A DNA stretch of 40,000 nucleotides, taken from contig NZ_CP072110.1 of NCBI RefSeq assembly GCF_017638545.1, forward strand, positions 2,571,181 through 2,611,180, read 5' to 3'. Shown piece after piece: positions 1 to 14,465 of this stretch. Origin of the DNA: Psychrosphaera ytuae (lineage in GTDB: Bacteria > Pseudomonadota > Gammaproteobacteria > Enterobacterales > Alteromonadaceae). Made by a program: the position numbers and the translations under genes. A model generated the notes under the pieces. That model made no database searches. It had not been told where the DNA came from and worked only from the letters and a program-made list of their open reading frames with translations. How positions within the stretch are numbered: position 1 is the stretch's first letter; each line of letters starts with the position of its first letter.

Positions 1-693
1 TATGTTATGCATCTTCTCATCCAAAGAGTCTAGCAATAAATTAGCAATTACATGACTAAATGCCGGCCCTGTCAGTAAACTAGGTTCACACTTAAGAGAA
101 GCGTTTGAGTGCTGTTGTCTATTAAGTAAATTATGTCCTAATAATTCAAACTTACTTTCCAAATCCGACTTCTGGCAAAATTTTTGCCAGACTTGGATAG
201 CCAAATCAGTATGTATACTGGGGTAAAATTTCTTAATATCTGTAATAAGCACCATACCATTTTCTACAGACCAACAGGCGTTGGCAATATCAGCTTGCCG
301 CTCTTTGTACCCGATAAAATAAGGGTTAAAAACGCCTGATTTATCTGATTCCTCTGTAAATCGATAGCTATAAACATATGGTTTCGGATGAAATATAGAA
401 TGTTTAGAAAGCTCCACTAACAAGGCGGTCTCAGATAAAGCCTCATTAGGAGCAGGCAAGTATATTTCTCTATGGGTAATAGCACCGCTTTCTGATAATT
501 CCTTAAAATGGAACGTTTTTAGATAAGAAGCTTCACCTTGACAACTTGACAATCGTGTAGATACATCACGAATCCACCGACATTTTTTAGCCGAGACGTT
601 TTTGAGGTAATACCTGAGACCTAAATAAGATAGAACGTCTCGTTTACGATATTGATTAAGAGTTTTTACTGCTAATAATGAGGAGTTTGGCAT
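1..693 (-). CDS. Reverse-transcriptase-like protein, N-terminal 231 codons; the ORF continues beyond the left window edge
   Basis: The minus-strand frame starting at ATG 693-691 has no stop in any of the 231 triplets down to base 1 (checked triplet by triplet). It is missing from the ORF track only because it is truncated. The translation MPNSSLLAVKTLNQYRKRDV... carries RT motifs in canonical order. These are HREIYLPAPNEALSETALL (R-x-I-x-x-P), MVLITDIKKFYPSI (motif A with the catalytic Asp, coords 214-255) and LLTGPAFSHVIANLLLDSLD (motif B). Motif C (YxDD) would lie outside the window. The start is 4 nt after the upstream gene's stop. Confidence 0.6.
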   Translation of the reverse strand, partial: MPNSSLLAVKTLNQYRKRDVLSYLGLRYYLKNVSAKKCRWIRDVSTRLSSCQGEASYLKTFHFKELSESGAITHREIYLPAPNEALSETALLVELSKHSIFHPKPYVYSYRFTEESDKSGVFNPYFIGYKERQADIANACWSVENGMVLITDIKKFYPSIHTDLAIQVWQKFCQKSDLESKFELLGHNLLNRQQHSNASLKCEPSLLTGPAFSHVIANLLLDSLDEKMHNI

Positions 694-697
694 ATTA

Positions 698-1648
698 TTA
701 ATCCAAAGGTAAATCAAAACGAGCAATAGTTAAACGAATAGGAAATGTTCCATCTTTAATAGGTTGTTCACACTTGATATCCGCTAACCCATATGGTTCA
801 TTTTCTTCGCTCTCACCGCCTACAAAAGTTAAAATAGGTTTAAATAGTTGCTTAAACCAAGTACTCATTCTTGGAAAAAAGTGATCCAGGACGTTATTTT
901 TTTGCGGTTCGATCCAGATAGCAGCGCTCAGCTGATCTCTACTGTGAATGAATATTTCAGAAATCTGTTTTTCAGCTTCTTTCCATTTACTGTTACCTTC
1001 CAAAAGCCCTGAAAAATTACTTACGACAAGAAGCCTTGAGTCGCAATTTTGGCTTCTTATTGTAATTTGACGAATTAAATCTGCATTGTTTATTCGATCC
1101 AATACATCCCAATGTAAAATTGTATATTCGAAACTTATTGCTTGTTCTTTTAACGGCTCTATTAATTCATCAAGTTGTTTCTTAAGATAGCTTCTAGCTG
1201 ATTCAGATATTTCCCCTGCGACAATTGATATATCTAGAGGAATACGAGGTAATACACTTTGAGTTCTCAATTCAGCTAATGTCGTTAAGATACTAATGAC
1301 AGCGGCACCAGAGCCACTAGGCAAATCAGCTAAAAAGACTCTTTGACCTGCAAAAATCTCAGCATAAGCGTCAGAAACTTTTGACAATTGGTTTTTGGGA
1401 TCGAGTAATGAGAGAATTACTCTCCCACAAGAACCATTATACCTCCAAGCTAAGTGCTTATCAGTTTCTTCCTTGCTTATGCCACCAATAAAGCCTTTAT
1501 CTGCCTTTTTTGTAGCTAATTCTGATAAGTTATTATCTTCAAGCAACAGCTTCCATTTCTCAACTAGCAAGTTCGGTAGCTTTATTATTTTCCTATCTTT
1601 ACACCATAAGGAGTTAGGTAAATCTTCCTTTTTAATAAACCGTTCCAT
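698..1648 (-). CDS. Short HsdM-like Rossmann-fold (gamma-class N6-MTase-like) protein with non-conserved catalytic motif IV; function unknown
   Basis: 316 aa, with ATG 3 nt after the hsdR stop. The motif order mirrors the two HsdM copies in the same operon. Motif I is VFLADLPSGSGAAVISIL (cf. DPACGTGG/DPTCGSGG). Motif II is ISIVAGEISESARSYL (cf. LFGQEKNL/LYGQEINL). Motif III is ILHWDVLD (cf. ILRGDTLR). LLVVSNFSGLL sits where VIANPPFSL/ILANPPYSI (motif IV) is expected, so NPP[FY] is absent. There is no HsdM N-terminal domain. By-eye comparison only. Confidence 0.45.
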   Translation of the reverse strand: MERFIKKEDLPNSLWCKDRKIIKLPNLLVEKWKLLLEDNNLSELATKKADKGFIGGISKEETDKHLAWRYNGSCGRVILSLLDPKNQLSKVSDAYAEIFAGQRVFLADLPSGSGAAVISILTTLAELRTQSVLPRIPLDISIVAGEISESARSYLKKQLDELIEPLKEQAISFEYTILHWDVLDRINNADLIRQITIRSQNCDSRLLVVSNFSGLLEGNSKWKEAEKQISEIFIHSRDQLSAAIWIEPQKNNVLDHFFPRMSTWFKQLFKPILTFVGGESEENEPYGLADIKCEQPIKDGTFPIRLTIARFDLPLD

Positions 1649-1651
1649 TTA

Positions 1652-4618
1652 TTAATAATATTCCTTGATGTAACCATATGCTCTATCAAACAGCACTTGG
1701 TCTTTATGTAATTTGTATTTAAGCAAAGCTTTGCGTAGTGATTTTTGTACTTCTCGTTCACCACCTACCGTGTTTTGCCAGCCTGGGAAGTTGACTACCC
1801 TTACGATTGCATCAATGTCAGTAACTATGCGTTCTACAACCGTAGGGGTTTCATCAGTTTTAAGTTCAAGGAACAGTTCTGTAAGTGCAGCTTTTGGTGA
1901 TTTCTCTTGAAGTTCTTGTTCTAACTCTTTTTCAGCTTTAACCGTGTCTTTGGCTATAGCGCAGAGCTCTTTTACGAATTCAATTGAAGTGATTAAGCCT
2001 TTCTCCGCTTTGTCACGTAGCTCTTCTAAACGCTCACTTAACTTTTTAAAATTGGCGTTTCCGCCGTGCTTAACAAAGCGTTTAATTAGGTCTTTTTCGA
2101 GCTGTTTAATTTTCTTGGGATCAGGGTTGTTAAAGATGTTTTCGATAACATCTGCATCTAAAACAAACTCTTCTAGCGTATGCACTTCACCTACATGAAT
2201 GTTCTCGTGGATTAATTGTGTGGTTTGCGCACCCAGTGCCAACCACAGTATTTTACCTACGTTATCCGATGCCGGTTTTACCGATTCAAATACCTGAGCA
2301 AGCCATTTGTAGTCTTGGTTATAAACATCCAAGATATTATCAGGTGATAAAGACTCCCATAACTTAGCAAGGTACTTAAAGTCTTTGGCAAAGGCATCTT
2401 TCTTTTCATCGGTATTAATAGCGTTCTGTGCCGCTTCTAAGCCTTCAAACCCATCAAGAGTTCTATCTACCCCTTCAAAGTGTCTTAACGCATCAGCCAT
2501 TGCTTGTGGCAGTCGAGAACGTAAATCGCCAAGATTAGTAATAACCTGTTTAACACTTTGCTCGTCAAACTCTAGCGCTTTAGCGGCATCATCAAACACA
2601 CCAAAGTAATCAACAATACAACCAAATGTTTTTTGCGGATATAAACGGTTTGTGCGACAAATTGCCTGTAGTAACGTATGGTCTTTTAATGACTTGTCTA
2701 AGTACATGGTTTGACAAATCGGGGCATCAAAACCGGTTAACAGCTTTGCTGTCACAATGATGAATTTAAGCTCTGATGTTGCGTCATTGTACTCATCAAC
2801 AATCTTTTCTTGCTGGCTTTTATCTACCGCCCACTTTTGCTTAAACTCAAAATCATCGTTGGCAGTAGTCGAGATTACAACTTTACTGGCCTCTTCTGGG
2901 AAGTACTTATCTAATTCTTCTTTGTATTGCACACAAGCATGACGATCTGGTGTGACTATCATGCCTTTAAAACCATGAGGCGCTACTTTTGCATTAAAGT
3001 GTTCAGCGATGTCTTTTACGATTTTTTCAACACGTTCAGGTGATTTCAAAAACGCTGACATTTTTGCTGACTTCTTGTTTAGCTCATCGGCTTCTTCGTC
3101 AGTTAGCGCAGCACTTTCTTTAAACTCTTCAAACGCTTTATCTAATGCGTCTTTATCAACATGGACGTCAACCAGTCGTGGTTCAAAGTGCAGAGGTAGT
3201 GTTGCTTCATCTCGAATTGAATCATGGAAGGTATAACGTGACATATAGCCACCTCTATCTTCCTCTGAGCCAAACGCCCAAAAGGTATTTTTATCTGCCT
3301 TGTTAACTGGCGTACCGGTTAAACCAAACAAAAATGCATTGGGTAATGCCGCTCGCATTTGTCGTCCTAAATCACCTTCTTGAGTTCGGTGAGCCTCATC
3401 CACCAATAGAATGATGTTTTCTCTATCATTCATATTAGGTTTAGCGTCTCTGAATTTATGGATCATTGAAATAATGATCTTACGAGTATCACGCTCCAAC
3501 ATTTGTTGAAGTTCTTTAATGCTTTCTGTGCTTTCAACATTGGCCACATCTGCCGCATTAAAGGTTCCGCTTATTTGTGTATCAAGGTCGGTTCTATCAA
3601 CAAGAACAATTACGGTTGGGCTTTTAAGCTCTGGTGCTCGTCTTAGCTTTTGTGCAGCAAACACCATGAGTAATGATTTACCTGAGCCTTGGAAGTGCCA
3701 TATCAGGCCTTTCTTAATTTTGCCTTCAATAACACGCTGGACGATTTTATTCGCCCCTTCATACTGCTGAAAGCGAGGAATCACCTTAATGCGTTGTTTT
3801 TTCTTGTTAGTGGTAAACAAAGAGAAGTTACGCATAATATCGAGTAATCGAGCCGGGCTAAGCAAGTCTGTGAGCTCTTTACCAATTTCAGCTAAACCTA
3901 GTGCTTTAGATATTTGACTGTCATTTTCTTCTATACGCCATGGAGCCCAAAACTCTAACGGACAGCGAATCGCACCATAAAACAGCTCTTTGCCTTCTGT
4001 GGCAAAAGACAAAATGTTTGGCACAAACAATTGCGGTACGGCATTTTCGTAAATTTGATGGATGTCATGGGCACCATCTAACCAACTTACTGAGGGTCTA
4101 ATCGGTGTTTTGGCTTCACCAACCACCACAGGTATACCGTTAATCATTAATACCACATCAGGTATTTTGGTTTCTCTGTGGTGAATACGAAACTGGTTAG
4201 TTAATATATAATCGTTTCGAGTTAAGTCTTCAAAATCAATTAGCTTAACGGATACATGACGATTGTTTTCACCAAACGGCATGGTTTTTTCGCCAGTCAT
4301 CCAAGCGAAAAATTCTTCGTTGGCTTTAACCAGTCCAACCTGATTTACCGAAATTAAAATAGCTCGGAGTTTATGTATTACTTCATCCGCCAAGTTTGGG
4401 TTAGCCTCAATCTCAGGGTTAAGACGAATTAACGCCTTAATCAGCTGCGATTCAACTAATACTTCATTTACACCACGCCCTAGCTTTTCTGGCGGTTGGA
4501 ATTGCCACTTAACACCCAAAGTTGGTTGTGGCTCTGATACTTGATTGGCATTTAAATTAATGCCACTTAGTTGATGGATGATGTAGTGTTCCACACTATT
4601 TAATTCGGTAAATCCCAT
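1652..4618 (-). CDS. hsdR: Type I restriction enzyme R subunit (HsdR)
   Basis: 988 aa. SF2 helicase motifs are present: WHFQGSGKSLLMVF (Walker A), LLVDEAHRTQ (DEAH), FGLTGTPV (motif III) and QAICRTNR (motif VI). It has the long N-terminal nuclease region and C-terminal helical region typical of HsdR. It lies immediately downstream of hsdS with a 2-nt gap. Confidence 0.95.
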   Translation of the reverse strand: MGFTELNSVEHYIIHQLSGINLNANQVSEPQPTLGVKWQFQPPEKLGRGVNEVLVESQLIKALIRLNPEIEANPNLADEVIHKLRAILISVNQVGLVKANEEFFAWMTGEKTMPFGENNRHVSVKLIDFEDLTRNDYILTNQFRIHHRETKIPDVVLMINGIPVVVGEAKTPIRPSVSWLDGAHDIHQIYENAVPQLFVPNILSFATEGKELFYGAIRCPLEFWAPWRIEENDSQISKALGLAEIGKELTDLLSPARLLDIMRNFSLFTTNKKKQRIKVIPRFQQYEGANKIVQRVIEGKIKKGLIWHFQGSGKSLLMVFAAQKLRRAPELKSPTVIVLVDRTDLDTQISGTFNAADVANVESTESIKELQQMLERDTRKIIISMIHKFRDAKPNMNDRENIILLVDEAHRTQEGDLGRQMRAALPNAFLFGLTGTPVNKADKNTFWAFGSEEDRGGYMSRYTFHDSIRDEATLPLHFEPRLVDVHVDKDALDKAFEEFKESAALTDEEADELNKKSAKMSAFLKSPERVEKIVKDIAEHFNAKVAPHGFKGMIVTPDRHACVQYKEELDKYFPEEASKVVISTTANDDFEFKQKWAVDKSQQEKIVDEYNDATSELKFIIVTAKLLTGFDAPICQTMYLDKSLKDHTLLQAICRTNRLYPQKTFGCIVDYFGVFDDAAKALEFDEQSVKQVITNLGDLRSRLPQAMADALRHFEGVDRTLDGFEGLEAAQNAINTDEKKDAFAKDFKYLAKLWESLSPDNILDVYNQDYKWLAQVFESVKPASDNVGKILWLALGAQTTQLIHENIHVGEVHTLEEFVLDADVIENIFNNPDPKKIKQLEKDLIKRFVKHGGNANFKKLSERLEELRDKAEKGLITSIEFVKELCAIAKDTVKAEKELEQELQEKSPKAALTELFLELKTDETPTVVERIVTDIDAIVRVVNFPGWQNTVGGEREVQKSLRKALLKYKLHKDQVLFDRAYGYIKEYY

Positions 4619-4620
4619 AC

Positions 4621-5787
4621 CTAAAACACCTTGCTAATCAATATAGATTGTAATTTGAAAACAGACTCTATTTTTGTTTTTTGCGCATTAATATTTTTCT
4701 TTATTTTGTCTAGTTGATTCACAGTAGCTAATTGCTTCTCTTTAGACTCAGGGTATCGAACCTTAAAAGCTTTAAACGTATCAATGCTAAGATTTTTCTG
4801 AGCGCTTTCTGTTGCCAAGCCATCTACTATTTTTTGTTTGTAATTCAGATAATAATATAAGTATTCTTGGCTTATTTTTTCTGGCTTAGCTTGTATACCG
4901 ACTAAGCTATCAGTAAAGGCACTATCAAAACTCAATAACCCCACATACCCGATATTGGCAGCTATTGTCATAACAATTGTTCCTTTCGGAAACATTTTAC
5001 TAATAGATAAGCCAAGCTCATTCAATGTTTGCGAATAAGACGTTATATATTTATCAGAATTAACTACTTCACTTGTTTGAATGAATGGAATTTTCCCTCC
5101 ATAAAATTGAGGAGCATTCCTAGGGCGGTGTGCAAATTTTCCTCTTTGAACTGAGGCGACTTCCAAAATTCCTTCCTTATTAAACCCCTTACCATTAAAT
5201 AGCTCTTTCTCAGAACTATTAAAAAGGATTTGTAAGTTCGAAAGTAAATTGCGTTCAACTTCAAGTAACTGACTTACTTCTCTAAGCAATTTTAACAAGT
5301 ATTGTTGTTTCTCTATGTTTGGAAGTAGAAACTCAAAATTCGATAAATCTTTAAACTTCACTCTCGGAGACAGACCTCCTGCTGAATGAGTCACTGCATG
5401 ATCAAAAAACTTTTCATTGTTTACAACGAAAGGTAATAGTTCAGGAAGAAGCAATGCTTCTCTAGCTCGCATAACCGTGATATCGCCCGAACAAATACCT
5501 TCAAACCCGGCTTTGGCAGCCTTCTTCAAATAAGCTCGGCGGCGACCAAATAAAACGTCACCTTTACAAAACTTTTTGGTAAACGTTGTACTACCTTCAA
5601 TACTAGCAGATCGGCGTAAATTCATATCGCCACTATCAATATGCTCTAAACCTACAACATGCTCTATACCTTCAGTAACTGGGTCTTTAACTGACTCTTT
5701 TGGCTCAAACACCACATCGCCAAACTTTACTTTTTTCCAGTCTGATTTATCGATAGAAAAGTTTTTAATAGCTTCCATGTCGAACAT
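4621..5787 (-). CDS. hsdS: Type I restriction-modification specificity subunit (HsdS), two target-recognition domains
   Basis: 388 aa. Two TRD-like halves are separated by a helical spacer (QQYLLKLLREVSQLLEVERNLLSNLQILF) and end in a second coiled region (QLDKIKKNINAQKTKIESVFKLQSILISKVF). The start overlaps the hsdM stop by 1 nt (TAATG). Confidence 0.9.
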   Translation of the reverse strand: MFDMEAIKNFSIDKSDWKKVKFGDVVFEPKESVKDPVTEGIEHVVGLEHIDSGDMNLRRSASIEGSTTFTKKFCKGDVLFGRRRAYLKKAAKAGFEGICSGDITVMRAREALLLPELLPFVVNNEKFFDHAVTHSAGGLSPRVKFKDLSNFEFLLPNIEKQQYLLKLLREVSQLLEVERNLLSNLQILFNSSEKELFNGKGFNKEGILEVASVQRGKFAHRPRNAPQFYGGKIPFIQTSEVVNSDKYITSYSQTLNELGLSISKMFPKGTIVMTIAANIGYVGLLSFDSAFTDSLVGIQAKPEKISQEYLYYYLNYKQKIVDGLATESAQKNLSIDTFKAFKVRYPESKEKQLATVNQLDKIKKNINAQKTKIESVFKLQSILISKVF

Positions 5788-7253
5788 TACACTAGCTCCT
5801 TAAATAACTTTTCCATTGATTGTTTTAGGTTATCTGATGACTGTTGCCATTCTTGATAAGCTGCCGTAAAACAGGCTTCCTCGCTGCTAACTAAAGAGTC
5901 TGGTCGAACATAAAGGTTAATCGCCATATTAGCTTTTCTATCTAGAACCTCTTGTTTATCGACTAACAAAGCAAAGTTCTCTTCACTTTCAAAATTGCTA
6001 TACGCATTAAATATTTTGTCTATATGCACTTGGTCTAGGTAGCCAATGTTTTTATCCTGTCTAACTTCTTTTACCGCATTTATAAACAAGATTTTTCCCT
6101 TCTTATGATCTTCCTTGTTTGTTTTAGTAATCAACAAACATGCTTCCATTGGCGAGTTATAAAAGAGGTTTGGCCCCAAGCCGATTACACACTCAACTAA
6201 GTCTTGCTCAATCATTTTCTTGCGCATTTCTGTTTCAGCATCGCGGAACAAAATGCCGTGTGGCCAAAGTGATATTGAGCGGCCATTGCCTAAATCTAAG
6301 CTTTTTTGAATATGTTGCTGGAATGCATAATCGGCACAACCTTGCGGTGGTGTGCCCCACAAATTACGCCCATACGGATCATTTTCGAATGCGCCACGAT
6401 CCCATGATTTAATTGAGTATGGCGGGTTAGCTAGGATGACGTTAAACTTTTTAAGCTCATCGTTCTCTAGCAAGCCTGGATTAGACAAAGTATTGCCTCG
6501 CACAATATCGAACTCCTCGATGCCATGCATAAACATGTTCATACGAGCAATAGCGGAAGTTAACAGGTTAATTTCTTGACCATATAACTTCAGTGTTCGG
6601 TATTCTTTGCCTTCGTCTTTTAAATGCAAGGCGCAGTTAAGCAATAAACCACCAGAACCACAGGTTGGGTCATATACCGACTCACCTGGTTGTGGGTCCA
6701 TAATCATAGTCATCAGCTTAACTACTGTACGGTTGGTATAAAACTCCGCTGCGGTATGGCCGCTGTCATCAGCAAACTCTTTAATTAAGTACTCGTAAGC
6801 GTTACCTAATTTATCGTCAGGCACATTTTTAAGATTCAGTTTATGCTGCGAGTAATGCTCAATAAGGTTAGTGAGCATGGCATCAGAAAGTCGGTCTTTA
6901 TTGGTCCAACTGGCATCACCAAAAATACCATCTAAGGTATCCGGGTTAGCTTTTTCAATAGCACGCATAGCATTTTGCAGTGCTAAGCCTACGTTGGTTG
7001 TCACCTCACGAACATCTTGCCAGTGAGCACCAACCGGGATTTGGAAATGGTGGTTTTCTGCAAAAGCAGCATATTCTAAATCACCATCACTTTCCGCTAA
7101 GGCGTTGTCAAACTCTTCATCATATACATCTGAGATGCGTTTAAAGAACATTAACGGGAATATGTACTGCTTGTAATCACCCGCATCGATAGTGCCACGT
7201 AAAGTAGTTGCAGCACCCCAAAGGTATTTTTCTAATTCTTGTTGAGTCATCAT
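5787..7253 (-). CDS. hsdM: Type I restriction-modification methyltransferase subunit (HsdM), S-proximal copy
   Basis: 488 aa. It has the HsdM N-terminal domain (YIFPLMFFKRISDVYDEEF), SAM motif I (VYDPTCGSGGLL) and catalytic motif IV (ILANPPYSI). It carries FYTNRTV where the paralog has the canonical FYTPRSV. Its start overlaps the DUF262 gene stop by 4 nt (ATGA). Confidence 0.93.
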   Translation of the reverse strand: MMTQQELEKYLWGAATTLRGTIDAGDYKQYIFPLMFFKRISDVYDEEFDNALAESDGDLEYAAFAENHHFQIPVGAHWQDVREVTTNVGLALQNAMRAIEKANPDTLDGIFGDASWTNKDRLSDAMLTNLIEHYSQHKLNLKNVPDDKLGNAYEYLIKEFADDSGHTAAEFYTNRTVVKLMTMIMDPQPGESVYDPTCGSGGLLLNCALHLKDEGKEYRTLKLYGQEINLLTSAIARMNMFMHGIEEFDIVRGNTLSNPGLLENDELKKFNVILANPPYSIKSWDRGAFENDPYGRNLWGTPPQGCADYAFQQHIQKSLDLGNGRSISLWPHGILFRDAETEMRKKMIEQDLVECVIGLGPNLFYNSPMEACLLITKTNKEDHKKGKILFINAVKEVRQDKNIGYLDQVHIDKIFNAYSNFESEENFALLVDKQEVLDRKANMAINLYVRPDSLVSSEEACFTAAYQEWQQSSDNLKQSMEKLFKELV

Positions 7254-9037
7254 GCCTCAGCTACCTCTTCAGCGTCATGATGGACAGTAACATCTAGCAT
7301 TTTTATTAACGTTGATTTCAATTTCTTTCGTCTGTTTTCGTTAAATATTAAATAGTCTTCAAACTCTAATGATTCTTCCGAATCTATATAATGCTGTCTT
7401 AAAAAGCTTTGCTGATCAGATTCACTTTCATACTCGGCTTTTAGCCATTCTTTAAATGGTTTGTTGCTCTTTTCTATATTTGTAGTGGCATGCAATAGCT
7501 GCAAATTTGCTAATTCATTAACACTGTCGTTGTATCTTTCAATTTGATCTTCACTGAAACCAAGTTTTCTCATATTACGTTTTTTGAACAGAGATTTTGG
7601 ATGTATATGATCTTGGTGATATTTGAAAGTGTAATTCAGCCCTGGGTATAGCAAAGTGAGTGCGCAATATGTTTTAGCTTTGCCGTATTGGAGGTCTAAT
7701 AAACTTTCTATATCGTCTTCAGTGAAGCTGATAGTTTTTCGTCGTCCACGGTAGTAAGCAATTGTTTCTGCGAGAGGGAATTTTCCTAAATTATCGTTGA
7801 TAAGTTCTCTCATTGCTGGATAAATATTATCCGGTTGCCCACCAAATGTCCCCTTAAGAAGCACTCGTGCTAACCACTCCCTAATAGCCTTTCTATCTTT
7901 TTCTCGTTCAGCACTATGCAATATTTTGCTATCTAAACGATTTTTGTAAATGAAATAAGCAATGGGGATTATGGTGTTCGTAGCAAGTAAATTATCTCTG
8001 CTGTATCCAATTTTTGACACTAGCTCTATCGCTAGCTTTAATGCACCTGACGCTTCATCCCAGTTTTCCTCAATTTTAGCCATGTTAGCTTTGTTGAAGT
8101 TATCAACTTTAAATTTAACATCTTTAAAATCGGCTAAAACTAAGCAGGCCTTTAGCACCAGGTCTTTATTGAACGAGAAGCCATCACCTATCTGGTTGAT
8201 ATCATCAACAAAATCATGAATAACTTCTCTAGCATCTTTTTCTTGCCATTGAGCTGTCGCAATTGAAAGCAATAAATCAGAATAACTTAACTTTGTTCCG
8301 CCACTGTTTATTCGTATAAATATCTGTAGCACTTTATCAAGCTCTTCACCTTTTTCTTCGTAATAGCTTATCGTGCCTTTTTGGTGCACTACGTTAAAAA
8401 ACTCATTTAATGTGCGCAACGCAAATGTAGTACTTTCTTGAGAATATTTAGATGTATCAGTTAAGCCCTCTAACATCATGTATTCCATGACTTTACTAAC
8501 ATCACTAAACTCTAAAATTTTTCCACATTCAAACCAGTAATAGCCCTCTTTTGGCTTGGCATCACTCTCTGTAAGAAACTTAAAATCATATTCAACTTCA
8601 ATGTCATCAGAACTTTTAAGCAGGTTTAAGTACAACTTTTTCTTAGGGTAAGCATGTGAACTACTTTTTCTGTAATAAGGCATCTTTTTAGAATAAGAGC
8701 CTGTTAGCGCCACATACATTGAAGTCATACGTTGTTGACCATCAAGTAAAGCAATTATGTCTTCTTCATCAGACAGATCAGCTTTTAAATTATGGCGACT
8801 ATCTTTTTCATGGTAGTTCTTTAGAAATTCATAGAACTGAAAATCCTTTACTTTATTCTTATCAACTTTCCAGAACAAAAAGGTACTAATTGGATAGTCT
8901 CGCATTAAAGAATCAAACAACGTCTCTATTTGACCCGTATCCCAGACAAACTCTCGCTGTATTGCCGGCAAAACATAATGACGTTTTCTGATATTGTTTA
9001 TTGCGTCTTTTATGGTAATTGGTATCTGATACGCCAT
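7250..9037 (-). CDS. DUF262/DUF1524 (GmrSD-like) putative modification-dependent (type IV) restriction nuclease
   Basis: 595 aa. The N-terminal DUF262 signatures are LPAIQREFVW and LLDGQQRMTS (DGQQR box). The C-terminal His-Me/HNH-like DUF1524 signature is YHQDHIHPKS...NLQLLHATTNIEKSNKP. The gene is embedded between the two hsdM genes with zero spacing or overlap. Confidence 0.8.
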   Translation of the reverse strand: MAYQIPITIKDAINNIRKRHYVLPAIQREFVWDTGQIETLFDSLMRDYPISTFLFWKVDKNKVKDFQFYEFLKNYHEKDSRHNLKADLSDEEDIIALLDGQQRMTSMYVALTGSYSKKMPYYRKSSSHAYPKKKLYLNLLKSSDDIEVEYDFKFLTESDAKPKEGYYWFECGKILEFSDVSKVMEYMMLEGLTDTSKYSQESTTFALRTLNEFFNVVHQKGTISYYEEKGEELDKVLQIFIRINSGGTKLSYSDLLLSIATAQWQEKDAREVIHDFVDDINQIGDGFSFNKDLVLKACLVLADFKDVKFKVDNFNKANMAKIEENWDEASGALKLAIELVSKIGYSRDNLLATNTIIPIAYFIYKNRLDSKILHSAEREKDRKAIREWLARVLLKGTFGGQPDNIYPAMRELINDNLGKFPLAETIAYYRGRRKTISFTEDDIESLLDLQYGKAKTYCALTLLYPGLNYTFKYHQDHIHPKSLFKKRNMRKLGFSEDQIERYNDSVNELANLQLLHATTNIEKSNKPFKEWLKAEYESESDQQSFLRQHYIDSEESLEFEDYLIFNENRRKKLKSTLIKMLDVTVHHDAEEVAEA

Positions 9038-10516
9038 TTATAAAAATCCTTTTAAAACTTGCTTAAATTTTTCTTCAGCTTCAAGGCTTGCTTGCCATGC
9101 TTGTTTTAAATCAGCCATAGCTTCTTCAACAGACGGTAAGTTGTCTTCAATGATCTTTTCTACATAAAGTGGAATATTAAGGTTAAAGTCGTTTTCTTTT
9201 AACTCTTCCATTGAAGCGACTTTCACGTAGTTCTCGACATCTTGATAGTCGTGATACCAATCGTAAATTTGTTGAACGTGATTTGGCTCTAAGAAGTTTT
9301 GAGCTCGGCCAACTCGAATTTGATCAGAGGCATCAATAAACAACACTTTACCTTTCTTATCAGCCGGTTTATTTTTTTTAAAAACCATGACACAAGCGGC
9401 GAGTTGAGTTCCGTAGAATACATTTGGTCCTAAACCGATTACCGCTTCTAATAAATCGCTTTCTAGCAGTTGTTTTCGGATTTTCCCTTCGGCAGCTTTT
9501 CTAAATAACGCACCGTGCGGTAATACAACAGTCATACGGCCGGTGCTGTTCATTGACTTAACCATGTGTTGCACCCACGCCATATCACCATTGCCTTTTG
9601 GTGGTACCCCAGCAATGTTACGCCCATAAGGATCATTAGCCCAAGTATCAGCGCCCCAATCTTTTAACGAGAATGGTGGGTTGGCAATGACACAGTCAAA
9701 GGTTTTAAGGCCATCCGCCTCAAAGAACCCCGGATGACGCAATGTATCGCCACGCAATATTTCAAAGTCTTCTATGCCATGTAAGAACATATTCATACGA
9801 GCAATTGAACTTGAAGTTAGGTTCTTTTCTTGCCCAAAGAGTTTTAGCGTTCGATAATCTTCTTTATTGTCTTTAAGGTGATCAACACACTCAAGCAACA
9901 TACCGCCTGTACCACACGCCGGATCGTAGATAGTTTCACCTTCGTGCGGATCTAGGATTAAGCCAAGAAGATGTACCACAGAGCGAGGCGTGTAGAACTC
10001 CCCAGCTTTTTTATTGGTTAAGTCAGCGAAGTGTTTAATCAAGTATTCGTAGGCGTTACCCAACATGTCTGGGTCAACATTTTGATTTCCTAGGGTGTAC
10101 TGAGAAAAGTGTTCAATTAGGTTTATCAGCAATTCATCCGATAGCTTATTTTTGTTGCTCCACTGTGCATCACCAAAAATTCCGTATAAAAATTCTTGGT
10201 TAGCTTGTTCTATACCTCGCAGAGCATTTTCAATTGCAGAACCTACATTGGTTGTGATCTCACGTACATCTTTCCAATGGCAACCGTCAGGTATTTCAAA
10301 GCGGTGAAATTCTGGTAATGCTGCGTACTCTTCATCACCATCTGATTCTTCTAGAGCAATACGAAACTCTTCATCGTATACATCGGAAATACGCTTAAAG
10401 AAAAGTAATGGGAATATGTATACTTTGAAGTCAGAGGCATCAACTGGACCTTTTAATATCCAGGCAGCTTTCGATAAGTATTGCTCTAGTTGGGAAAGGG
10501 TTATTTTTGTCGTCAT
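9038..10516 (-). CDS. hsdM: Type I restriction-modification methyltransferase subunit (HsdM), promoter-proximal copy
   Basis: 492 aa. Motifs present are YIFPLLFFKRISDVYDEEF, GEFYTPRSV, IYDPACGTGGML (motif I) and VIANPPFSL (motif IV). It aligns full length with the other HsdM but differs by many substitutions. It is the first gene of the operon, preceded by a ~230-bp non-coding region. Confidence 0.93.
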   Translation of the reverse strand: MTTKITLSQLEQYLSKAAWILKGPVDASDFKVYIFPLLFFKRISDVYDEEFRIALEESDGDEEYAALPEFHRFEIPDGCHWKDVREITTNVGSAIENALRGIEQANQEFLYGIFGDAQWSNKNKLSDELLINLIEHFSQYTLGNQNVDPDMLGNAYEYLIKHFADLTNKKAGEFYTPRSVVHLLGLILDPHEGETIYDPACGTGGMLLECVDHLKDNKEDYRTLKLFGQEKNLTSSSIARMNMFLHGIEDFEILRGDTLRHPGFFEADGLKTFDCVIANPPFSLKDWGADTWANDPYGRNIAGVPPKGNGDMAWVQHMVKSMNSTGRMTVVLPHGALFRKAAEGKIRKQLLESDLLEAVIGLGPNVFYGTQLAACVMVFKKNKPADKKGKVLFIDASDQIRVGRAQNFLEPNHVQQIYDWYHDYQDVENYVKVASMEELKENDFNLNIPLYVEKIIEDNLPSVEEAMADLKQAWQASLEAEEKFKQVLKGFL

Positions 10517-10745
10517 TAATTTTTTACTTTTTAATTAAGCCGTAAATTTAAAGTAGGTGGCTATCTTCTCATTGTCTGATAACTGTCCTCAATGGCTTTT
10601 GTATATAGTGCGGACCAATAAATTCGGCTGTTCTAAGGCTGTACGTTTTTGATTAGTCAATGTTCTATGCTAGCTCATAGAGTACTACAAACTAAGTCAA
10701 TATTAATAGTAGGTACAACAAATTGAAAATTATGGAATTGTTAAT

Positions 10746-10766
10746 TGGTAACCGGATTAGTAACCA
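10746..10766 (+). repeat. Left copy of an imperfect 21-nt direct repeat (candidate att or arm site of the integrative element)
   Basis: TGGTAACCGGATTAGTAACCA here versus TAGTAACCGATTTAGTAACCA at 23440-23460. They are in the same orientation and 18 of 21 positions are identical by direct comparison. Both contain two GTAACC/GGTTAC units. Confidence 0.45.
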
Positions 10767-10839
10767 AATCTTTTAGCCATGAATGGATAAATAAATTAGG
10801 TAGCGCATTACCTTGCATAAGTCATTTTAGGCCTAGTAC

Positions 10840-11139
10840 TCAGCGCTCTCGTTGTTTGATTAATAACTCAAGTTCAGCAATAGATAGGTTACTGTATTTT
10901 TTATATATCTCTATTGTGTTTGATGATGCGTTTGAAGGATTATTAATACCAGCTACTGATTTATAGTTTGAAACTTTAGCGTTAATACTTGTAGCTTTAA
11001 GGTCAGTAATTGATGCCATTTCTTGACAAAGTTTGTTTTGTTTTTGTTTTGGGAAGTTTTCAGCACGCAGTATTTTAAAAATCAATAAGCACCTAATCTC
11101 ATTTAGTTCGTTCCAAGCTGAGTTGTTTCTATAGGCCAT
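10840..11139 (-). CDS. Hypothetical small protein (99 aa), second gene of a two-gene module
   Basis: Good SD (AAGGAAAC, then 4 nt, then ATG) 18 nt after the upstream gene's stop. The segment LCQEMASITDLKATSINAKVSNYKSV resembles the small N-terminal helical module seen in some HNH-type restriction proteins. That resemblance is weak and from memory only. Confidence 0.55.
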   Translation of the reverse strand: MAYRNNSAWNELNEIRCLLIFKILRAENFPKQKQNKLCQEMASITDLKATSINAKVSNYKSVAGINNPSNASSNTIEIYKKYSNLSIAELELLIKQRER

Positions 11140-11157
11140 TTCTGTTTCCTTATATTT

Positions 11158-11631
11158 CTATGCTTGTCTTACATAATTGGAAGATACTAAAAAACATTGC
11201 AGGTTTAACTTTTCTTTTACTCGTTCAGGGATTTTAGTAATTTGGCGATTCCATTCAGGTAGGTCCGGCACTGCGATAGCATATTTTATGCTTTTACAGG
11301 ATCTATTCATCAATATGATTGCTTGGCCTAATGCGGAATACATAGCTTGTTCTTTCTGTTTACTAGATTGCCCTTCTACTTCAATTAGGTAAGTGCCATA
11401 TTTGGGATGAGTTGCACATATATCGACTCTTCCATATTCTTTATGTGCTCCAAAAGTTACTCCTAGCCCATCGAGTAGTCTTTCTGCCTTAAGTACTTTT
11501 TCTTTTTTGTCAGGCTTATGCTGTGGACCCTTTGCTCTCTCCATTGAGTCAATATCTACCACAACTTGCCAACCTTGTTTTGGTGAAAACAAGTTGTTTA
11601 CCAAATGAAATTTCACTTCTAGTTGATACAT
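11158..11631 (-). CDS. Hypothetical protein (157 aa), possible restriction-endonuclease-like (PD-(D/E)xK) fold
   Basis: The segment GRVDICATHPKYGTYLIEVEGQSSKQKEQAMYSALGQAII has an Asp in a beta-strand context followed by hydrophobic-E-V-E-G, similar to D...(D/E)xK cores. The canonical Lys is not at +2. An AAGG SD lies upstream of the ATG. Confidence 0.5.
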   Translation of the reverse strand: MYQLEVKFHLVNNLFSPKQGWQVVVDIDSMERAKGPQHKPDKKEKVLKAERLLDGLGVTFGAHKEYGRVDICATHPKYGTYLIEVEGQSSKQKEQAMYSALGQAIILMNRSCKSIKYAIAVPDLPEWNRQITKIPERVKEKLNLQCFLVSSNYVRQA

Positions 11632-11736
11632 GATGGCCTTGATATATTGCTATTTTTTAACCATTCAACCAGAAAACCTGTCAACTCAATAGTAAATTTT
11701 GAATTTAAATTTAATTGAGTTTATTTAAAATGAGGA

Positions 11737-11765
11737 CTGGCGCGAGCATAAAACTAACGCGCCAG
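11737..11765 (-). terminator. GC-rich hairpin downstream of the 139-aa gene (possible weak terminator)
   Basis: CTGGCGCG, a 13-nt loop, then CGCGCCAG form an 8-bp perfect stem that stands out in AT-rich sequence. On the minus strand it is followed by TCCTCATTTTAAAT, so the T-run is not immediately adjacent. Confidence 0.35.
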
Positions 11766-11792
11766 TGATTGGCTCATAAGAGCAATTTTAAT

Positions 11793-12212
11793 CTAAGCAC
11801 CTGGGCCAAATTCAATTTTGAGCTCGCGAACTCTGGAACAGAGTGTTTCTATAAGGTGCTCTCTTTGTTTCTTGTTTGGACTTTCGAATTGTTCCCCAAC
11901 AATTTTAATGCTTTTTATGATCATTTCAGTTTGTAGATTAGTGAAATCTACGTAATGTTCTTTTATTTTGTTGGCTTTATTATTAATAAATACGCCTACG
12001 GCATTTATTAATGCCTCTTTTGCTAAAGTTCTTCCATTAGGAAGCTGAGGCTCAATTAAATCAAATACTCTCTGGCACACGTTCTGGCAAATTAATGCAC
12101 AGTCACTGGCACTTGCATGAAGCCTCTTATTTGTATAATGAAGAGGGTACTCCTTAGAAAATTCGATCATCACGTTTGAAAAACCTACGTATTGTGTATC
12201 TTGTATTGTCAT
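11793..12212 (-). CDS. Hypothetical protein (139 aa from ATG 12212; the ORF-track start at 12245 is a TTG)
   Basis: A strong SD (AGGAG, then 5 nt, then ATG at 12212) supports the shorter start. No motif recognised. Confidence 0.55.
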   Translation of the reverse strand: MTIQDTQYVGFSNVMIEFSKEYPLHYTNKRLHASASDCALICQNVCQRVFDLIEPQLPNGRTLAKEALINAVGVFINNKANKIKEHYVDFTNLQTEMIIKSIKIVGEQFESPNKKQREHLIETLCSRVRELKIEFGPGA

Positions 12213-12262
12213 AAAGACTCCTGTTGAAAAATATCCGCACTTCAATTACGCGCGGAGTTTAA

Positions 12263-13766: not shown

Positions 13767-14465
13767 CTAATTTTCTGAGCTAATTAAGTTTTTATTGTTT
13801 CGGAGTCTTCGTTTCGCTATCGCTATGGACTCCTCTCTAGCTATTTTCTGATCTTCTTCTTTTGCGACGTCTTCCCAATAACTTTTAGCTTTTTGTTCTA
13901 ATTCTTCTCGTGTAAAAATTTCATCTTCTACGTCCGTAGTTTGATTCTTTAATTCAGCTATCAGTGCATACATTATGAATTGTGGAACTGACCCTAACTC
14001 ATGTAGTTCATAATTAAATGCTACTTCTGACGCAGTAATTTGCTGGCTTTGAAACTTTTTTAAGATTCTCTTTTTAGTTTGTTCTTTTTTTAAATTAGGT
14101 AGCTGGTGGTGAGATAACTCTGATTCTAGGAGTTTTTGAACTTGAGGAGCGAGCTTGGCTACTCGGTCAGCGCATGCAAGGGCTAAGTGAAGCGCACTGA
14201 CTTCGTCACCGCTTTCCATTAATTGGTGAACTGCTGTTGTTCCTATTGTTGTTATGTTGAACAGTTGCCCTTTCAATATACCAGTTTCAAAAGCTAGATC
14301 GTTTTCCAATGCCGAGTTTAATAATGATTCATCAACATTTTGTGAGTAGCCACCATGAACTAAAGCAGCTTTGTTGTTTTTGAGAAATCGAGCACGTCTT
14401 GTAATTGGGTCGATTGAGTAATCTTCCGTGCCTTTATTTGTTTTAGTTTTTCTTCTTTGAGTCAT
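13767..14465 (-). CDS. Hypothetical protein, possibly terminase small subunit-like
   Basis: 232 aa, directly upstream of the TerL-like gene (22-nt gap). It has a basic N-terminus and a NNKAALVHGGYS motif resembling the N-x-N-A-x-K-H-G-x-Y-S motif I recall from some TerS-like proteins. Weak evidence. Confidence 0.35.
   Translation of the reverse strand: MTQRRKTKTNKGTEDYSIDPITRRARFLKNNKAALVHGGYSQNVDESLLNSALENDLAFETGILKGQLFNITTIGTTAVHQLMESGDEVSALHLALACADRVAKLAPQVQKLLESELSHHQLPNLKKEQTKKRILKKFQSQQITASEVAFNYELHELGSVPQFIMYALIAELKNQTTDVEDEIFTREELEQKAKSYWEDVAKEEDQKIAREESIAIAKRRLRNNKNLISSEN

What the first reader, a model, noticed from the sequence alone, without database searches (positions are those of the whole stretch)
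1..1648. Reverse-transcriptase-like gene and a catalytically degenerate HsdM-like protein translationally coupled to the 3' end of a type I R-M operon
The hsdR stop is followed after 3 nt by a 316-aa ORF. That ORF is followed after 4 nt by an ORF whose first 231 codons carry RT motifs 1/2, A and B: HREIYLPAP, ITDIKKFYPSI and LLTGPAFSHVIANLLLDSLD.

The 316-aa protein reproduces the motif I-II-III order of the two HsdM proteins upstream. At the motif IV position it has SNFSG instead of NPP[FY]S, and it lacks the HsdM N-terminal domain. This suggests a SAM- or DNA-binding module rather than an active methyltransferase.

Defence RTs (retrons, Abi RTs, DRT/UG groups) normally pair with an effector. 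I do not recognise an MTase-like partner fused into an hsd operon from described types. There is no intergenic room for a retron msr/msd between these genes.
Basis: partly seen in the sequence, partly recalled or inferred. Interest (0 to 1): 0.75.

Follow-up and report, generated by a model that had tools for sequence, protein, structure and literature searches.

The report
UG36 reverse transcriptase with methyltransferase-like partner
The two genes after the restriction enzyme gene are an already catalogued but never tested candidate anti-phage pair: a "UG36" reverse transcriptase and a conserved methyltransferase-fold partner, here carried at the end of a type I restriction-modification operon, a position this pair occupies repeatedly in other bacteria.

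Summary
On the minus strand, hsdR (1652-4618) is followed after 3 nt by a 316-aa ORF (698-1648). That ORF is followed after 4 nt by an RT ORF that runs off the window (1-693).

The RT is a UG36-group UG/Abi reverse transcriptase (PADLOC RT_UG36: E 1e-89 for the fragment, 1.6e-191 for the 577-aa source protein P0137). P0137 carries motif C, RYVDD.

The 316-aa protein has a confident class I SAM-methyltransferase fold. It shows no detectable sequence relation to HsdM. Its "SNFSG" is not decay: N211-F212 and the SAM-binding motifs are kept in about 93-100% of 243 relatives.

The partner-RT pairing held in every locus with enough sequence, about 70 loci. Mestre et al. 2022 already described UG36 as linked to a methylase-domain gene, so the pairing is known. 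It has not been tested experimentally in the papers I could search.

Three points may be new:
- The pair recurrently sits directly beside type I R-M operons of at least four hsdR types, and beside BREX.
- The RT fold resembles class 1 enzymes (DRT4, DRT6, AbiK) that make untemplated, protein-primed DNA.
- A cyanobacterial variant adds a DEDDh exonuclease.

Verdict: a new member of a known kind, of moderate interest.

The parts
1..693 (-). 5' 693 nt (codons 1-231 of 577) of the UG36 reverse transcriptase gene, cut by the window edge
   Evidence: Translation. PADLOC RT_UG36 E 1.1e-89, profile positions 2-220 of 557. Identical to residues 1-231 of P0137 from the source genome. P0137 matches RT_UG36 at E 1.6e-191 over profile 2-556.
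214..243 (-). RT motif A (TDIKKFYPSI), with catalytic Asp D152 at 238-240
   Evidence: D152, I153, F156 and Y157 are invariant in 36 RT homologues. The stretch aligns to motif A of DRT6 and other RTs.
19..78 (-). RT motif B (LLTGPAFSHVIANLLLD)
   Evidence: L207, G209, P210 and H214 are invariant. Motif C (RYVDD, residues 238-242) lies 7 codons beyond the window edge and is seen in P0137 and in all 17 full-length locus homologues.
698..1648 (-). 316-aa class I methyltransferase-fold partner of the UG36 RT ('MTL')
   Evidence: AlphaFold2 pLDDT 92.9, with alternating beta-alpha Rossmann core strands at 103-109, 138-146, 171-179, 204-210 and 241-248. Foldseek against PDB returns only SAM-methyltransferases and MTase-fold proteins among the best hits (DOT1L E 7e-7, PH1948, CmoA). 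Weak match to the N-terminal methylase region of RT_UG35 (E 5e-4). A relative, P0316, matches that region at E 2.9e-16.
1304..1327 (-). Motif I of the partner protein (D108-LPSGSG-A115), the presumed SAM-binding loop after strand 1
   Evidence: D108 242/243, G112 243/243, G114 237/243, A115 232/243 across the family.
1007..1018 (-). Motif IV position of the partner protein (N211-F-S-G214), directly after strand 4
   Evidence: N 225/243, F 230/243, S/T 230/243, G 202/243. Kept as SNFSGA in the 22%-identical Aliarcobacter homologue.
1652..4618 (-). hsdR, type I restriction subunit; its stop lies 3 nt before the partner gene's ATG
   Evidence: Pfam HSDR_N, SWI2_SNF2, ResIII, T1R_D3-like. PADLOC REase_I E 1.4e-132.
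4621..5787 (-). hsdS specificity subunit
   Evidence: Pfam Methylase_S. PADLOC Specificity_I E 2.4e-90.
5787..7253 (-). hsdM2, an active-looking N6-adenine methyltransferase (NPPY)
   Evidence: Pfam N6_Mtase 1.1e-81 and HsdM_N. Motifs checked.
7250..9037 (-). GmrSD-family (HEC-05) nuclease gene embedded between the two hsdM genes
   Evidence: Pfam GmrSD_N and GmrSD_C. PADLOC HEC-05 E 7.4e-229.
9038..10516 (-). hsdM1, the first gene of the operon (NPPF)
   Evidence: Pfam N6_Mtase 4.8e-105 and HsdM_N. Motifs checked.

Best explanation
Shown:
- Window 1-1648 encodes a UG36-type UG/Abi defence-associated reverse transcriptase system. It has two overlapping or near-abutting genes: a conserved SAM-methyltransferase-fold protein followed by a ~577-aa RT with an intact palm (D152, YVDD) and an all-helical C-terminal half.
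- The pair is an autonomous cassette. It also occurs on its own among housekeeping genes.
- Here, and in its close relatives, it sits at the 3' end of a type I R-M operon with 3-nt and 4-nt gaps and no terminator-like site.
- The operon lies on a low-GC island bounded by an integrase.

Inferred:
- The pair is co-transcribed with the R-M genes and probably translationally coupled to them.
- The RT works like the class 1 UG/Abi enzymes it most resembles in fold (DRT4, DRT6, AbiK, AbiA, Abi-P2). It would make DNA without a dedicated non-coding RNA template, primed from one of its own invariant tyrosines. That DNA product, or its accumulation during infection, would cause abortive infection.
- The partner protein binds SAM. 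It acts with the RT as regulator, sensor or modifier, possibly as a real methyltransferase with an unusual N-F-[ST]-G catalytic loop.
- The R-M operon and UG36 are separate layers of defence sharing one transcript.

I rate the identity (UG36 plus methylase-like partner) at about 0.95. I rate the proposed mechanism at about 0.35.
For: Identity:
- RT_UG36 E 1e-89 for the fragment and 1.6e-191 for full-length P0137.
- YVDD in P0137 and in all 17 full-length homologues from the loci.
- Mestre et al. 2022 describe UG36 with an associated methylase gene and predict a defence role.

Pairing: the partner gene is followed by the RT in every locus with room. This covers 18 genome loci, the L024-L035 contigs and about 50 metagenome loci. 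The two genes usually overlap by 4 nt.

Partner fold and conservation: pLDDT 92.9, methyltransferase hits only, and motif I, II, III and IV residues kept in 93-100% of 243 relatives.

Class-1-like RT:
- The AF2 model has pLDDT 89.2, and residues 294-572 are all helices.
- The best PDB matches run over 550-675 columns: DRT4 9vdo, DRT6 9wy8, UG15 9l9s, AbiK, AbiA and Abi-P2.
- The best sequence match among solved structures is DRT6 (E 1.3e-10).
- DRT4 makes template-independent, Tyr-primed ssDNA (PMC12783706).
- In UG36, Y15, Y23, Y28, Y29, Y57, Y110 and Y125 are invariant.

No dedicated ncRNA slot:
- Flanking gaps range from 2-3 nt upstream and 12-67 nt downstream in compact loci to hundreds of nt elsewhere.
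- No flanking sequence is conserved across the family.
- The window has no Rfam hit.

Autonomy: stand-alone pairs occur among housekeeping or IS genes, and neighbours of 16 loci carry few defence genes.

Operon link: the 3-nt and 4-nt gaps and the absence of a terminator-like site.
Against: - No experiment on UG36 exists in the searchable literature. Defence itself is a prediction.
- Mestre et al. left UG36 unclassified and saw no evidence of a C-terminal alpha-repeat domain.
- My structural matches to class 1 enzymes have modest TM-scores (0.32-0.47) and high rmsd.
- An RNA template could lie inside coding sequence or be the operon mRNA itself. I could not test that.
- SAM binding and methyl transfer by the partner are inferred from fold and motif conservation only. 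No Pfam family and no solved structure matches it by sequence.
- The recurrent adjacency to R-M and BREX may mean the systems are functionally dependent rather than independent layers.
Confidence: 0.6

Rival explanations
1. UG36 is a guard for SAM-dependent restriction systems. The methyltransferase-like protein would monitor SAM, or the integrity of the methyltransferase complex. When a phage disables type I R-M or BREX (SAM degradation, Ocr-like DNA mimics), it would release the RT to make toxic DNA. This would be a second line of defence, analogous to PrrC with EcoprrI.
For: The pair directly abuts type I R-M operons of at least four different hsdR types:
- The window type: window, L024, L025 and L028, with hsdR 90-93% identical to the window's.
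- The L007/L046 type: hsdR 43% identical to the window's.
- The EcoEI_R_C type: L026.
- The EcoAI type: Aliarcobacter plasmid and L064. L066 carries an hsdM/hsdS of this type, but no hsdR was seen on that contig.

It also follows a BREX operon (PglX-GmrSD-PglZ-BrxL, 34-nt gap) in L001. Counting both unbiased samples, about 7 of 43 loci with context are adjacent to R-M or BREX.

In the partner protein, the SAM-binding residues are the most conserved part.
Against: Most pairs stand alone, some among housekeeping genes with no R-M nearby, so the cassette must work without a linked R-M. Type I R-M and BREX operons are known hot spots where unrelated defence genes are embedded; this very operon carries a GmrSD/HEC-05 gene. 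No physical or genetic interaction has been tested.
Confidence: 0.12
2. The partner is an active methyltransferase whose substrate is the RT's own DNA product, its nucleotides, or the RT protein. The pair would then write modified DNA, and methylation would be needed to stabilise or weaponise the product.
For: - The full set of class I motifs is conserved, including a motif IV asparagine directly after strand 4.
- The genes are strictly co-inherited and overlap with the RT.
- Methylase-RT fusions exist in the related groups UG25 and UG35, with PADLOC RT_UG35 N-terminal matches.
- The best structural neighbours include amino-group methyltransferases such as DOT1L. From memory, DOT1L has an N-N-F loop at the same position.
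Against: N-F-[ST]-G is not a recognised catalytic motif. GRAS-domain proteins, which to my knowledge share this fold without known methyltransferase activity, also appear among the hits. No substrate can be inferred from sequence.
Confidence: 0.2
3. The pair is not an immune system at all. It would be a selfish or housekeeping retroelement-like cassette that happens to land in genomic islands.
For: Several loci lie among metabolic genes or next to IS elements. Only a few of 141 neighbouring proteins match PADLOC models. Mestre et al. could predict defence for UG36 only from selected loci, not from a statistical enrichment.
Against: - There is no integrase, endonuclease or intron RNA in the cassette, and no Rfam hit.
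- The RT's nearest relatives by profile and by fold are all defence RTs.
- Tight operonic placement after hsdR, after BrxL and before Mokosh genes is typical of defence cargo.
- The partner and the RT evolve faster than the adjoining hsdR (80% and 74% against 93% identity), as expected under an arms race.
Confidence: 0.08

Closest known systems
UG36 group of UG/Abi reverse transcriptases (Mestre et al. 2022, NAR 50:6084, PMC9226505)
   Same: The RT matches the UG36 profile end to end. An adjacent gene has a methylase fold, as that paper reports for UG36. A defence role is predicted.
   Different: Nothing differs in kind; this is a member. What this analysis adds: recurrent operonic placement beside type I R-M and BREX; a class-1-like predicted fold of the C-terminal half, where the paper saw no alpha-repeat evidence; a conserved N-F-[ST]-G loop in the partner; and a three-gene cyanobacterial variant with a DEDDh exonuclease.
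UG35 and UG25 RTs (N-terminal methylase fused to the RT)
   Same: They combine the same two activities. The window partner, and more clearly its relative P0316, match the N-terminal part of the RT_UG35 profile (E 5e-4 and 2.9e-16).
   Different: In UG36 the two parts are separate, overlapping genes. The UG36 RT matches the UG35 RT domain only weakly (56 bits). UG35 is reported with a UvrD-like helicase and UG25 with DUF1848; neither belongs to this cassette.
DRT4 (UG15), DRT6, AbiK, AbiA and Abi-P2: class 1 UG/Abi polymerases
   Same: They are the best full-length structural matches, and DRT6 is the best sequence match among solved structures. They share an RT palm plus a helical C-terminal domain. 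There is no obligatory flanking ncRNA. DRT4 synthesises untemplated ssDNA primed on Tyr125.
   Different: Those are single-gene systems or carry other fused domains, and none has a methyltransferase partner. TM-scores are only 0.32-0.47. Protein priming and untemplated synthesis are not shown for UG36.
Defence genes embedded in type I R-M operons (PrrC-EcoprrI from my own knowledge; PADLOC 'HEC' candidates)
   Same: A non-R-M defence gene shares the operon with hsdM, hsdS and hsdR. This operon also holds a GmrSD/HEC-05 gene.
   Different: PrrC is an anticodon nuclease held in check by the R-M complex. No such dependence is known for UG36, and UG36 sits at the operon's end rather than inside it.
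Retrons
   Same: Both have a defence RT with an accessory protein.
   Different: Retron RT profiles score at most 38 bits, against 636 for UG36. There is no msr/msd region: the gaps are 3 and 4 nt, and Rfam finds nothing.

Membership tests
UG36 (UG/Abi RT group) | RT matches the UG36 profile over its full length and better than any other RT group | tested here: met
   Fragment: E 1.1e-89, profile 2-220 of 557. Source protein P0137: E 1.6e-191, 636 bits, profile 2-556 of 557. The next best model is UG17 at 57 bits.
UG36 (UG/Abi RT group) | Intact RT palm motifs A, B and C (YxDD) | tested here: met
   Motifs A and B lie in the window. Motif C, RYVDD, lies just outside the window and is seen in P0137, whose first 231 residues equal the window ORF, and in 17 of 17 full-length locus homologues.
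UG36 (UG/Abi RT group) | Adjacent gene with a methylase domain (Mestre et al. 2022) | tested here: met
   The 316-aa ORF has a class I methyltransferase fold. It lies upstream of the RT in all loci with room.
UG36 (UG/Abi RT group) | Anti-phage activity | not testable with these tools
   This is only a published prediction. I found no experimental paper.
Class 1 UG/Abi RTs (untemplated, protein-primed) | C-terminal alpha-helical repeat domain fused to the RT | tested here: inconclusive
   Model residues 294-572 are all helical. Full-length Foldseek alignments to DRT4, DRT6, UG15, AbiK, AbiA and Abi-P2 have TM only 0.32-0.47. Mestre et al. found no such domain.
Class 1 UG/Abi RTs (untemplated, protein-primed) | Priming tyrosine and template-independent synthesis | not testable with these tools
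   Invariant tyrosines exist (Y15, Y23, Y28, Y29, Y57, Y110, Y125), but none could be mapped onto DRT4 Tyr125 or AbiK Tyr44.
HsdM / gamma-class N6-adenine DNA methyltransferase | Match to Pfam N6_Mtase and HsdM_N | tested here: not met
   No Pfam family matches the window protein or any of 32 relatives, even at E up to 1. hhalign against the window HsdM2 gives probability 1.4%.
HsdM / gamma-class N6-adenine DNA methyltransferase | (N/D/S)PP(Y/F/W) motif IV | tested here: not met
   The window protein has SNFSG. The family consensus is N-F-[ST]-G, with no member showing PP. The two true HsdM proteins have NPPF and NPPY.
Class I SAM-dependent methyltransferase fold | Seven-stranded Rossmann-like core with a glycine-rich motif I, an acidic residue after strand 2 and a motif IV loop after strand 4 | tested here: met
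   The AF2 strand order, Foldseek probability 1.0 to many SAM-methyltransferases, and D108/G112/G114, E/D146 and W180-D/N181 conserved in at least 97% of 243 sequences. SAM binding itself was not tested.
Retron | msr/msd non-coding RNA next to a retron-clade RT | tested here: not met
   The gaps are 3 and 4 nt. Rfam finds no family. Retron RT models score at most 38 bits, and NCBIfam retron_St85_RT scores 31.5 bits against a cut-off of 235.
Group II intron RT/maturase | Maturase-type RT inside an intron RNA | tested here: not met
   TIGR04416 scores 13.3 bits against a cut-off of 300. There is no intron RNA hit in Rfam.
Type I restriction-modification operon (context) | hsdM, hsdS and hsdR genes together | tested here: met
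   Pfam and PADLOC matches for all three, with two hsdM copies.

The most novel reading that the evidence does not exclude
UG36 may be a dedicated back-up for SAM-dependent restriction systems. Its methyltransferase-fold subunit would sense loss of SAM or sabotage of the R-M or BREX methyltransferase complex by phage anti-restriction factors. It would then license the RT to make untemplated, possibly methylated, DNA that aborts infection. This would explain why the cassette has repeatedly been attached to the ends of unrelated type I R-M operons and of BREX.
Probability: 0.12. Interest if true: 0.8.

Novelty: new member of a known kind. Interest (0 to 1): 0.4.

Why it matters
UG36 is one of the UG/Abi reverse-transcriptase groups for which no mechanism or phenotype has been reported. 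Its relatives have turned out to write unusual DNA: random ssDNA, poly-dA, protein-templated repeats.

This locus offers a compact, natural test case: R-M plus UG36 on one transcript in a culturable marine bacterium, Psychrosphaera ytuae. The comparative data sharpen three questions:
- Does the methyltransferase-fold partner bind SAM, and does it methylate anything?
- Is the RT an untemplated, protein-primed polymerase like DRT4?
- Is the repeated attachment to type I R-M and BREX functional or only positional?

If the attachment is functional, it would add an RT-based guard to the known ways bacteria back up restriction. If it is only positional, this is one more defence gene using R-M operons as a landing site.

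Tried and rejected
- Recovering the sequence left of the window failed. Exact-protein look-ups of the 316-aa ORF, of P0001 and of P0137 all found no contig on record. The source genome was not among the genome-contig loci. The full RT was obtained as a protein only (P0137).
- A homology search with the 231-aa RT fragment returned only short fragments. I repeated it with a full-length relative.
- A profile search of the partner family against PDB sequences gave nothing meaningful (one hit, E 0.21).
I therefore rejected both 'HsdM-like' and 'Dot1-like' as membership claims and kept only 'class I MTase fold'.
- Retron and group II intron readings are rejected on profile scores and on the absence of RNA elements.
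- I looked for a conserved non-coding element beside the cassette. Only a ~55-nt upstream block turned up, shared within one stand-alone subclade, most simply a promoter or 5' UTR. Nothing is shared family-wide.
- The promoter and terminator scan of 1-12500 gave fewer promoter-like sites than shuffles and nothing at the hsdR/partner junction.
- Phage and plasmid collections: no phage hit and one distant plasmid hit. The plasmid hit proved informative.
- The representative search lists only the top 150 of 402 hits, so I could not inspect the weakest relatives, which might include UG35-like fusions.
Full report
**1. What is in the sequence**

Seven genes run head to tail on the minus strand:
- hsdM1, 9038-10516
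- a GmrSD-family gene, 7250-9037
- hsdM2, 5787-7253
- hsdS, 4621-5787
- hsdR, 1652-4618
- a 316-aa ORF, 698-1648
- an ORF starting at 693 that is still open at base 1

There are 3 nt between the hsdR stop and the next ATG, and 4 nt between the 316-aa ORF's stop and the next ATG. No terminator-like hairpin lies between these genes, and promoter-like sites are fewer than in shuffled sequence. Pfam and PADLOC confirm the R-M genes and call the embedded gene GmrSD/HEC-05. Both HsdM proteins have NPPF or NPPY.

**2. The RT**

The 231-codon fragment matches PADLOC RT_UG36 at E 1.1e-89. Every other RT model is at least 80 orders of magnitude weaker in E-value. NCBIfam retron and group II intron models fall far below their cut-offs.

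The source organism is Psychrosphaera ytuae. Its annotated 577-aa 'RNA-directed DNA polymerase' (P0137) begins with exactly the 231 residues encoded in the window. It continues ...TEGKYFRYVDDIAFVG.... Motif C therefore lies seven codons beyond the window edge and is intact.

P0137 covers the UG36 profile from position 2 to 556 of 557 (E 1.6e-191). All 17 full-length homologues taken from genome loci have YVDD. In 36 diverse homologues these residues are invariant: D152, G209, P210, Y239, V240, D241, D242 and seven tyrosines (Y15, Y23, Y28, Y29, Y57, Y110, Y125).

**3. The 316-aa partner**

It matches no Pfam or NCBIfam family, and neither do any of 32 relatives.

An AlphaFold2 model built on 32 homologues is confident (pLDDT 92.9). 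It shows a helical N-terminal part followed by an alternating strand-helix core. Foldseek against PDB gives 59 hits at E below 1e-3. Nearly all of the 50 listed are SAM-dependent methyltransferases (DOT1L, PH1948, CmoA, MnmM, GNMT and others); the rest are GRAS-domain proteins, which share the fold. TM-scores are 0.3-0.4.

The methyltransferase fold is therefore supported. A specific relation to HsdM is not:
- hhalign against the window's own HsdM2 gives probability 1.4%.
- No HsdM or N6-DNA methyltransferase is among the 50 listed structural hits.

Across 243 family members (median 37% identity to the window protein, minimum 23%) the residues below are retained:

| Residue | Retained in |
|---|---|
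| D108 | 242 |
| G112 | 243 |
| G114 | 237 |
| E/D146 | 243 |
| W180 | 239 |
| D/N181 | 241 |
| N211 | 225 |
| F212 | 230 |
| S/T213 | 230 |
| E247 | 240 |

A 22%-identical homologue on an Aliarcobacter plasmid still reads LPCGSGAG ... SNFSGA ... WIEP. This is a conserved, distinctive motif set, not a degenerate one. Whether it catalyses methyl transfer is unknown.

**4. The pair is a unit, and it is already described**

Wherever a contig leaves room, the partner gene is followed directly by the RT, typically with a 4-nt overlap. This holds for:
- 18 genome loci;
- the contigs L024-L035;
- about 50 metagenome loci.

Mestre et al. 2022 (PMC9226505) defined UG36. They left it unclassified among UG/Abi RTs. 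[quoted passage not shown]

PADLOC supports the homology with the UG35 N-terminal region. The window partner scores E 5e-4, and the relative P0316 scores E 2.9e-16. That paper is the only one in the searchable library that mentions UG36 as an RT group.

The pairing is known bioinformatically and is uncharacterised experimentally.

**5. Context: attached to R-M and BREX again and again**

The closest relatives of the window cassette have the same arrangement, hsdM-hsdM-hsdS-hsdR followed after 2-3 nt by the partner and the RT. These are L024 (preceded by BrxR), L025 and L028. L007 from Methylophaga lonarensis also has it, although its hsdR is only 43% identical.

Further cases involve unrelated R-M families:
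- L026: an EcoEI_R_C-type hsdR, then a 428-aa unknown gene, then the pair.
- L046: an L007-type operon, then a 304-aa gene, then the pair.
- L066: an hsdM/hsdS of the EcoAI-operon type overlapping the partner gene by 4 nt.
- L064: the pair lies upstream of an EcoAI-type hsdR.
- Aliarcobacter faecis plasmid pAFAEC: hsdR(EcoAI type)-hsdM-RNA-binding-hsdS-DUF4297-570 aa-partner(304 aa)-RT(577 aa), with both cassette proteins only 22% identical to the window's.

In L001 the pair follows BrxL of a BREX operon (PglX-GmrSD-PglZ-BrxL) after 34 nt.

In the two unbiased samples (genome and metagenome scans), roughly 7 of 43 loci with enough flank abut type I R-M or BREX. That is far more than a random gene would.

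The rest stand alone, some among plainly housekeeping genes or IS elements. Only a few of 141 neighbouring proteins from 16 such loci match defence models. The cassette is therefore autonomous but has a marked tendency to join methylation-based defence operons.

Between the window and L024, hsdR is 93% identical, but the partner is 80% and the RT 74%. Either the cassette evolves faster than its R-M host operon or it has been exchanged.

**6. How it probably works**

The AF2 model of P0137 is confident (pLDDT 89.2). It has an RT core followed by an all-helical C-terminal half, residues 294-572.

The best PDB matches align over nearly the full length and are all class 1 UG/Abi enzymes: DRT4 (9vdo, E 6e-9), DRT6 (9wy8), UG15 (9l9s), AbiK, AbiA and Abi-P2. 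Retron, DRT2, DRT9 and group II RTs match only through the palm. By sequence, the closest solved structure is DRT6.

DRT4 synthesises random ssDNA without a template. Synthesis is primed on its own Tyr125, and the product becomes toxic when a phage DNA-binding protein protects it (PMC12783706). Reviews and preprints group class 1 DRTs as untemplated and class 2 as ncRNA-templated.

UG36 loci leave no fixed place for an ncRNA. Flanking gaps can be 2-3 nt upstream and 12-67 nt downstream. No flank is conserved family-wide, and Rfam finds nothing in the window.

I therefore infer, at about 0.35 confidence, that UG36 is a protein-primed, untemplated DNA polymerase, and that its methyltransferase-fold partner binds SAM and regulates or modifies the reaction. 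This is inference from resemblance. The TM-scores are modest, and Mestre et al. did not see a C-terminal repeat domain.

**7. Rivals**

- A guard model is attractive given the R-M and BREX adjacency. The many stand-alone loci count against it, as does the general habit of defence genes to embed in R-M operons. This operon already carries a GmrSD gene.
- A product-methylating enzyme is compatible with the conserved motifs but has no direct support.
- A non-defence role is unlikely given the RT's relatives and the operonic company it keeps.

**8. Verdict**

It is wrong on 'HsdM-like', unsupported on 'degenerate', and mistaken about novelty.

This is a new member of the known UG36 kind. The remaining interest lies in three things: the lack of any experimental work on UG36, the conserved unusual motif of the partner, and the recurrent attachment to SAM-dependent restriction systems.

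Noticed in passing
window 5787-10516 (-): The type I R-M operon has two paralogous hsdM genes, both with NPPF/NPPY. The slot between them holds different cargo in different relatives. The window has GmrSD/HEC-05; L007 has 252-aa and 116-aa unknown genes; L025 has a 436-aa unknown gene plus transposon insertions; L024 and L028 have nothing there. The two-hsdM layout itself is conserved down to 43-55% identity.
   Followed up: partly
window 1-24000; integrase at 22156-23376 (-): The R-M/UG36 operon lies on a low-GC stretch (35-40%, against 42-48% beyond 24 kb). The stretch ends at a tyrosine integrase with a P4-type arm-binding domain, next to the housekeeping gene yicC. It also carries a YagK/YfjJ-like gene (14462-15283), a GIY-YIG protein (20416-21921) and several ORFs with no family match. 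No tRNA gene is in the window. It looks like an integrated mobile island with defence cargo.
   Followed up: partly
L024 12798-19204; L028 11006-17412: In the two closest relatives, the UG36 RT is followed after 67 nt by a type I Mokosh system: MkoA of 1662 aa (E 0) and MkoB of 472 aa (E 1e-106). Whether the source genome has the same genes left of the window could not be checked.
   Followed up: partly
L010 12701-13381, L011 12708-13418, L012 12711-13391, L018 12732-13439, L022 11341-12051, L054, L057, L058, L074: A mainly cyanobacterial subclade has a third gene 11-30 nt after the RT. It is a 226-236-aa DEDDh (RNase T/DnaQ-like) 3'-5' exonuclease (Pfam RNase_T; PADLOC DEDDh E 2e-23). Host exonucleases control the DNA products of DRT4, so this could be a built-in product-trimming or regulating subunit.
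   Followed up: partly
L036/L037 (Aliarcobacter faecis plasmid NZ_CP053838.1, record 109807-122027): A very distant UG36-like pair (22% identity for both proteins; hhalign probability 99.8% for the partner) ends an EcoAI-type R-M operon. That operon also contains an RNA-binding-domain gene, a DUF4297 gene and a 570-aa unknown gene. It was the only plasmid hit, and there was no phage hit.
   Followed up: partly
P0316 (663 aa, metagenomic protein): A single polypeptide joins partner residues 1-245 to RT_UG36 profile positions 150-555, so it lacks the RT N-terminus. It is either a deletion-generated pseudogene or fusion, or a natural step toward the fused UG35-like architecture.
   Followed up: no
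L002 ~9920-9974, L014, L029 ~6976-7030, L033, L034 (upstream of the partner gene): A ~55-nt non-coding block just upstream of the partner's start codon is 75-80% conserved among stand-alone cassettes from different organisms. It is absent from other clades and from the R-M-linked loci. It is most simply a promoter or 5' UTR travelling with the cassette.
   Followed up: partly
window 698-4618 compared with L024, L025: hsdR is 90-93% identical between these loci. The adjoining partner is 66-80% and the RT 63-74%, and hsdS is 44-51%. The cassette and the specificity subunit diverge much faster than the R-M core, or they have been swapped.
   Followed up: partly
L064 10001-19224: Here the pair lies at the 5' side of a type I R-M gene set: the RT stop is 54 nt before an EcoAI-type hsdR, with hsdS and hsdM further on. 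The association with R-M is therefore not tied to one position in the operon.
   Followed up: no
window 10840-12245 (-): Three small ORFs upstream of hsdM1 (99, 157 and 150 aa) have no Pfam, NCBIfam or PADLOC match. The relative L024 instead has an HTH gene and a BrxR-type WYL regulator in that position.
   Followed up: no
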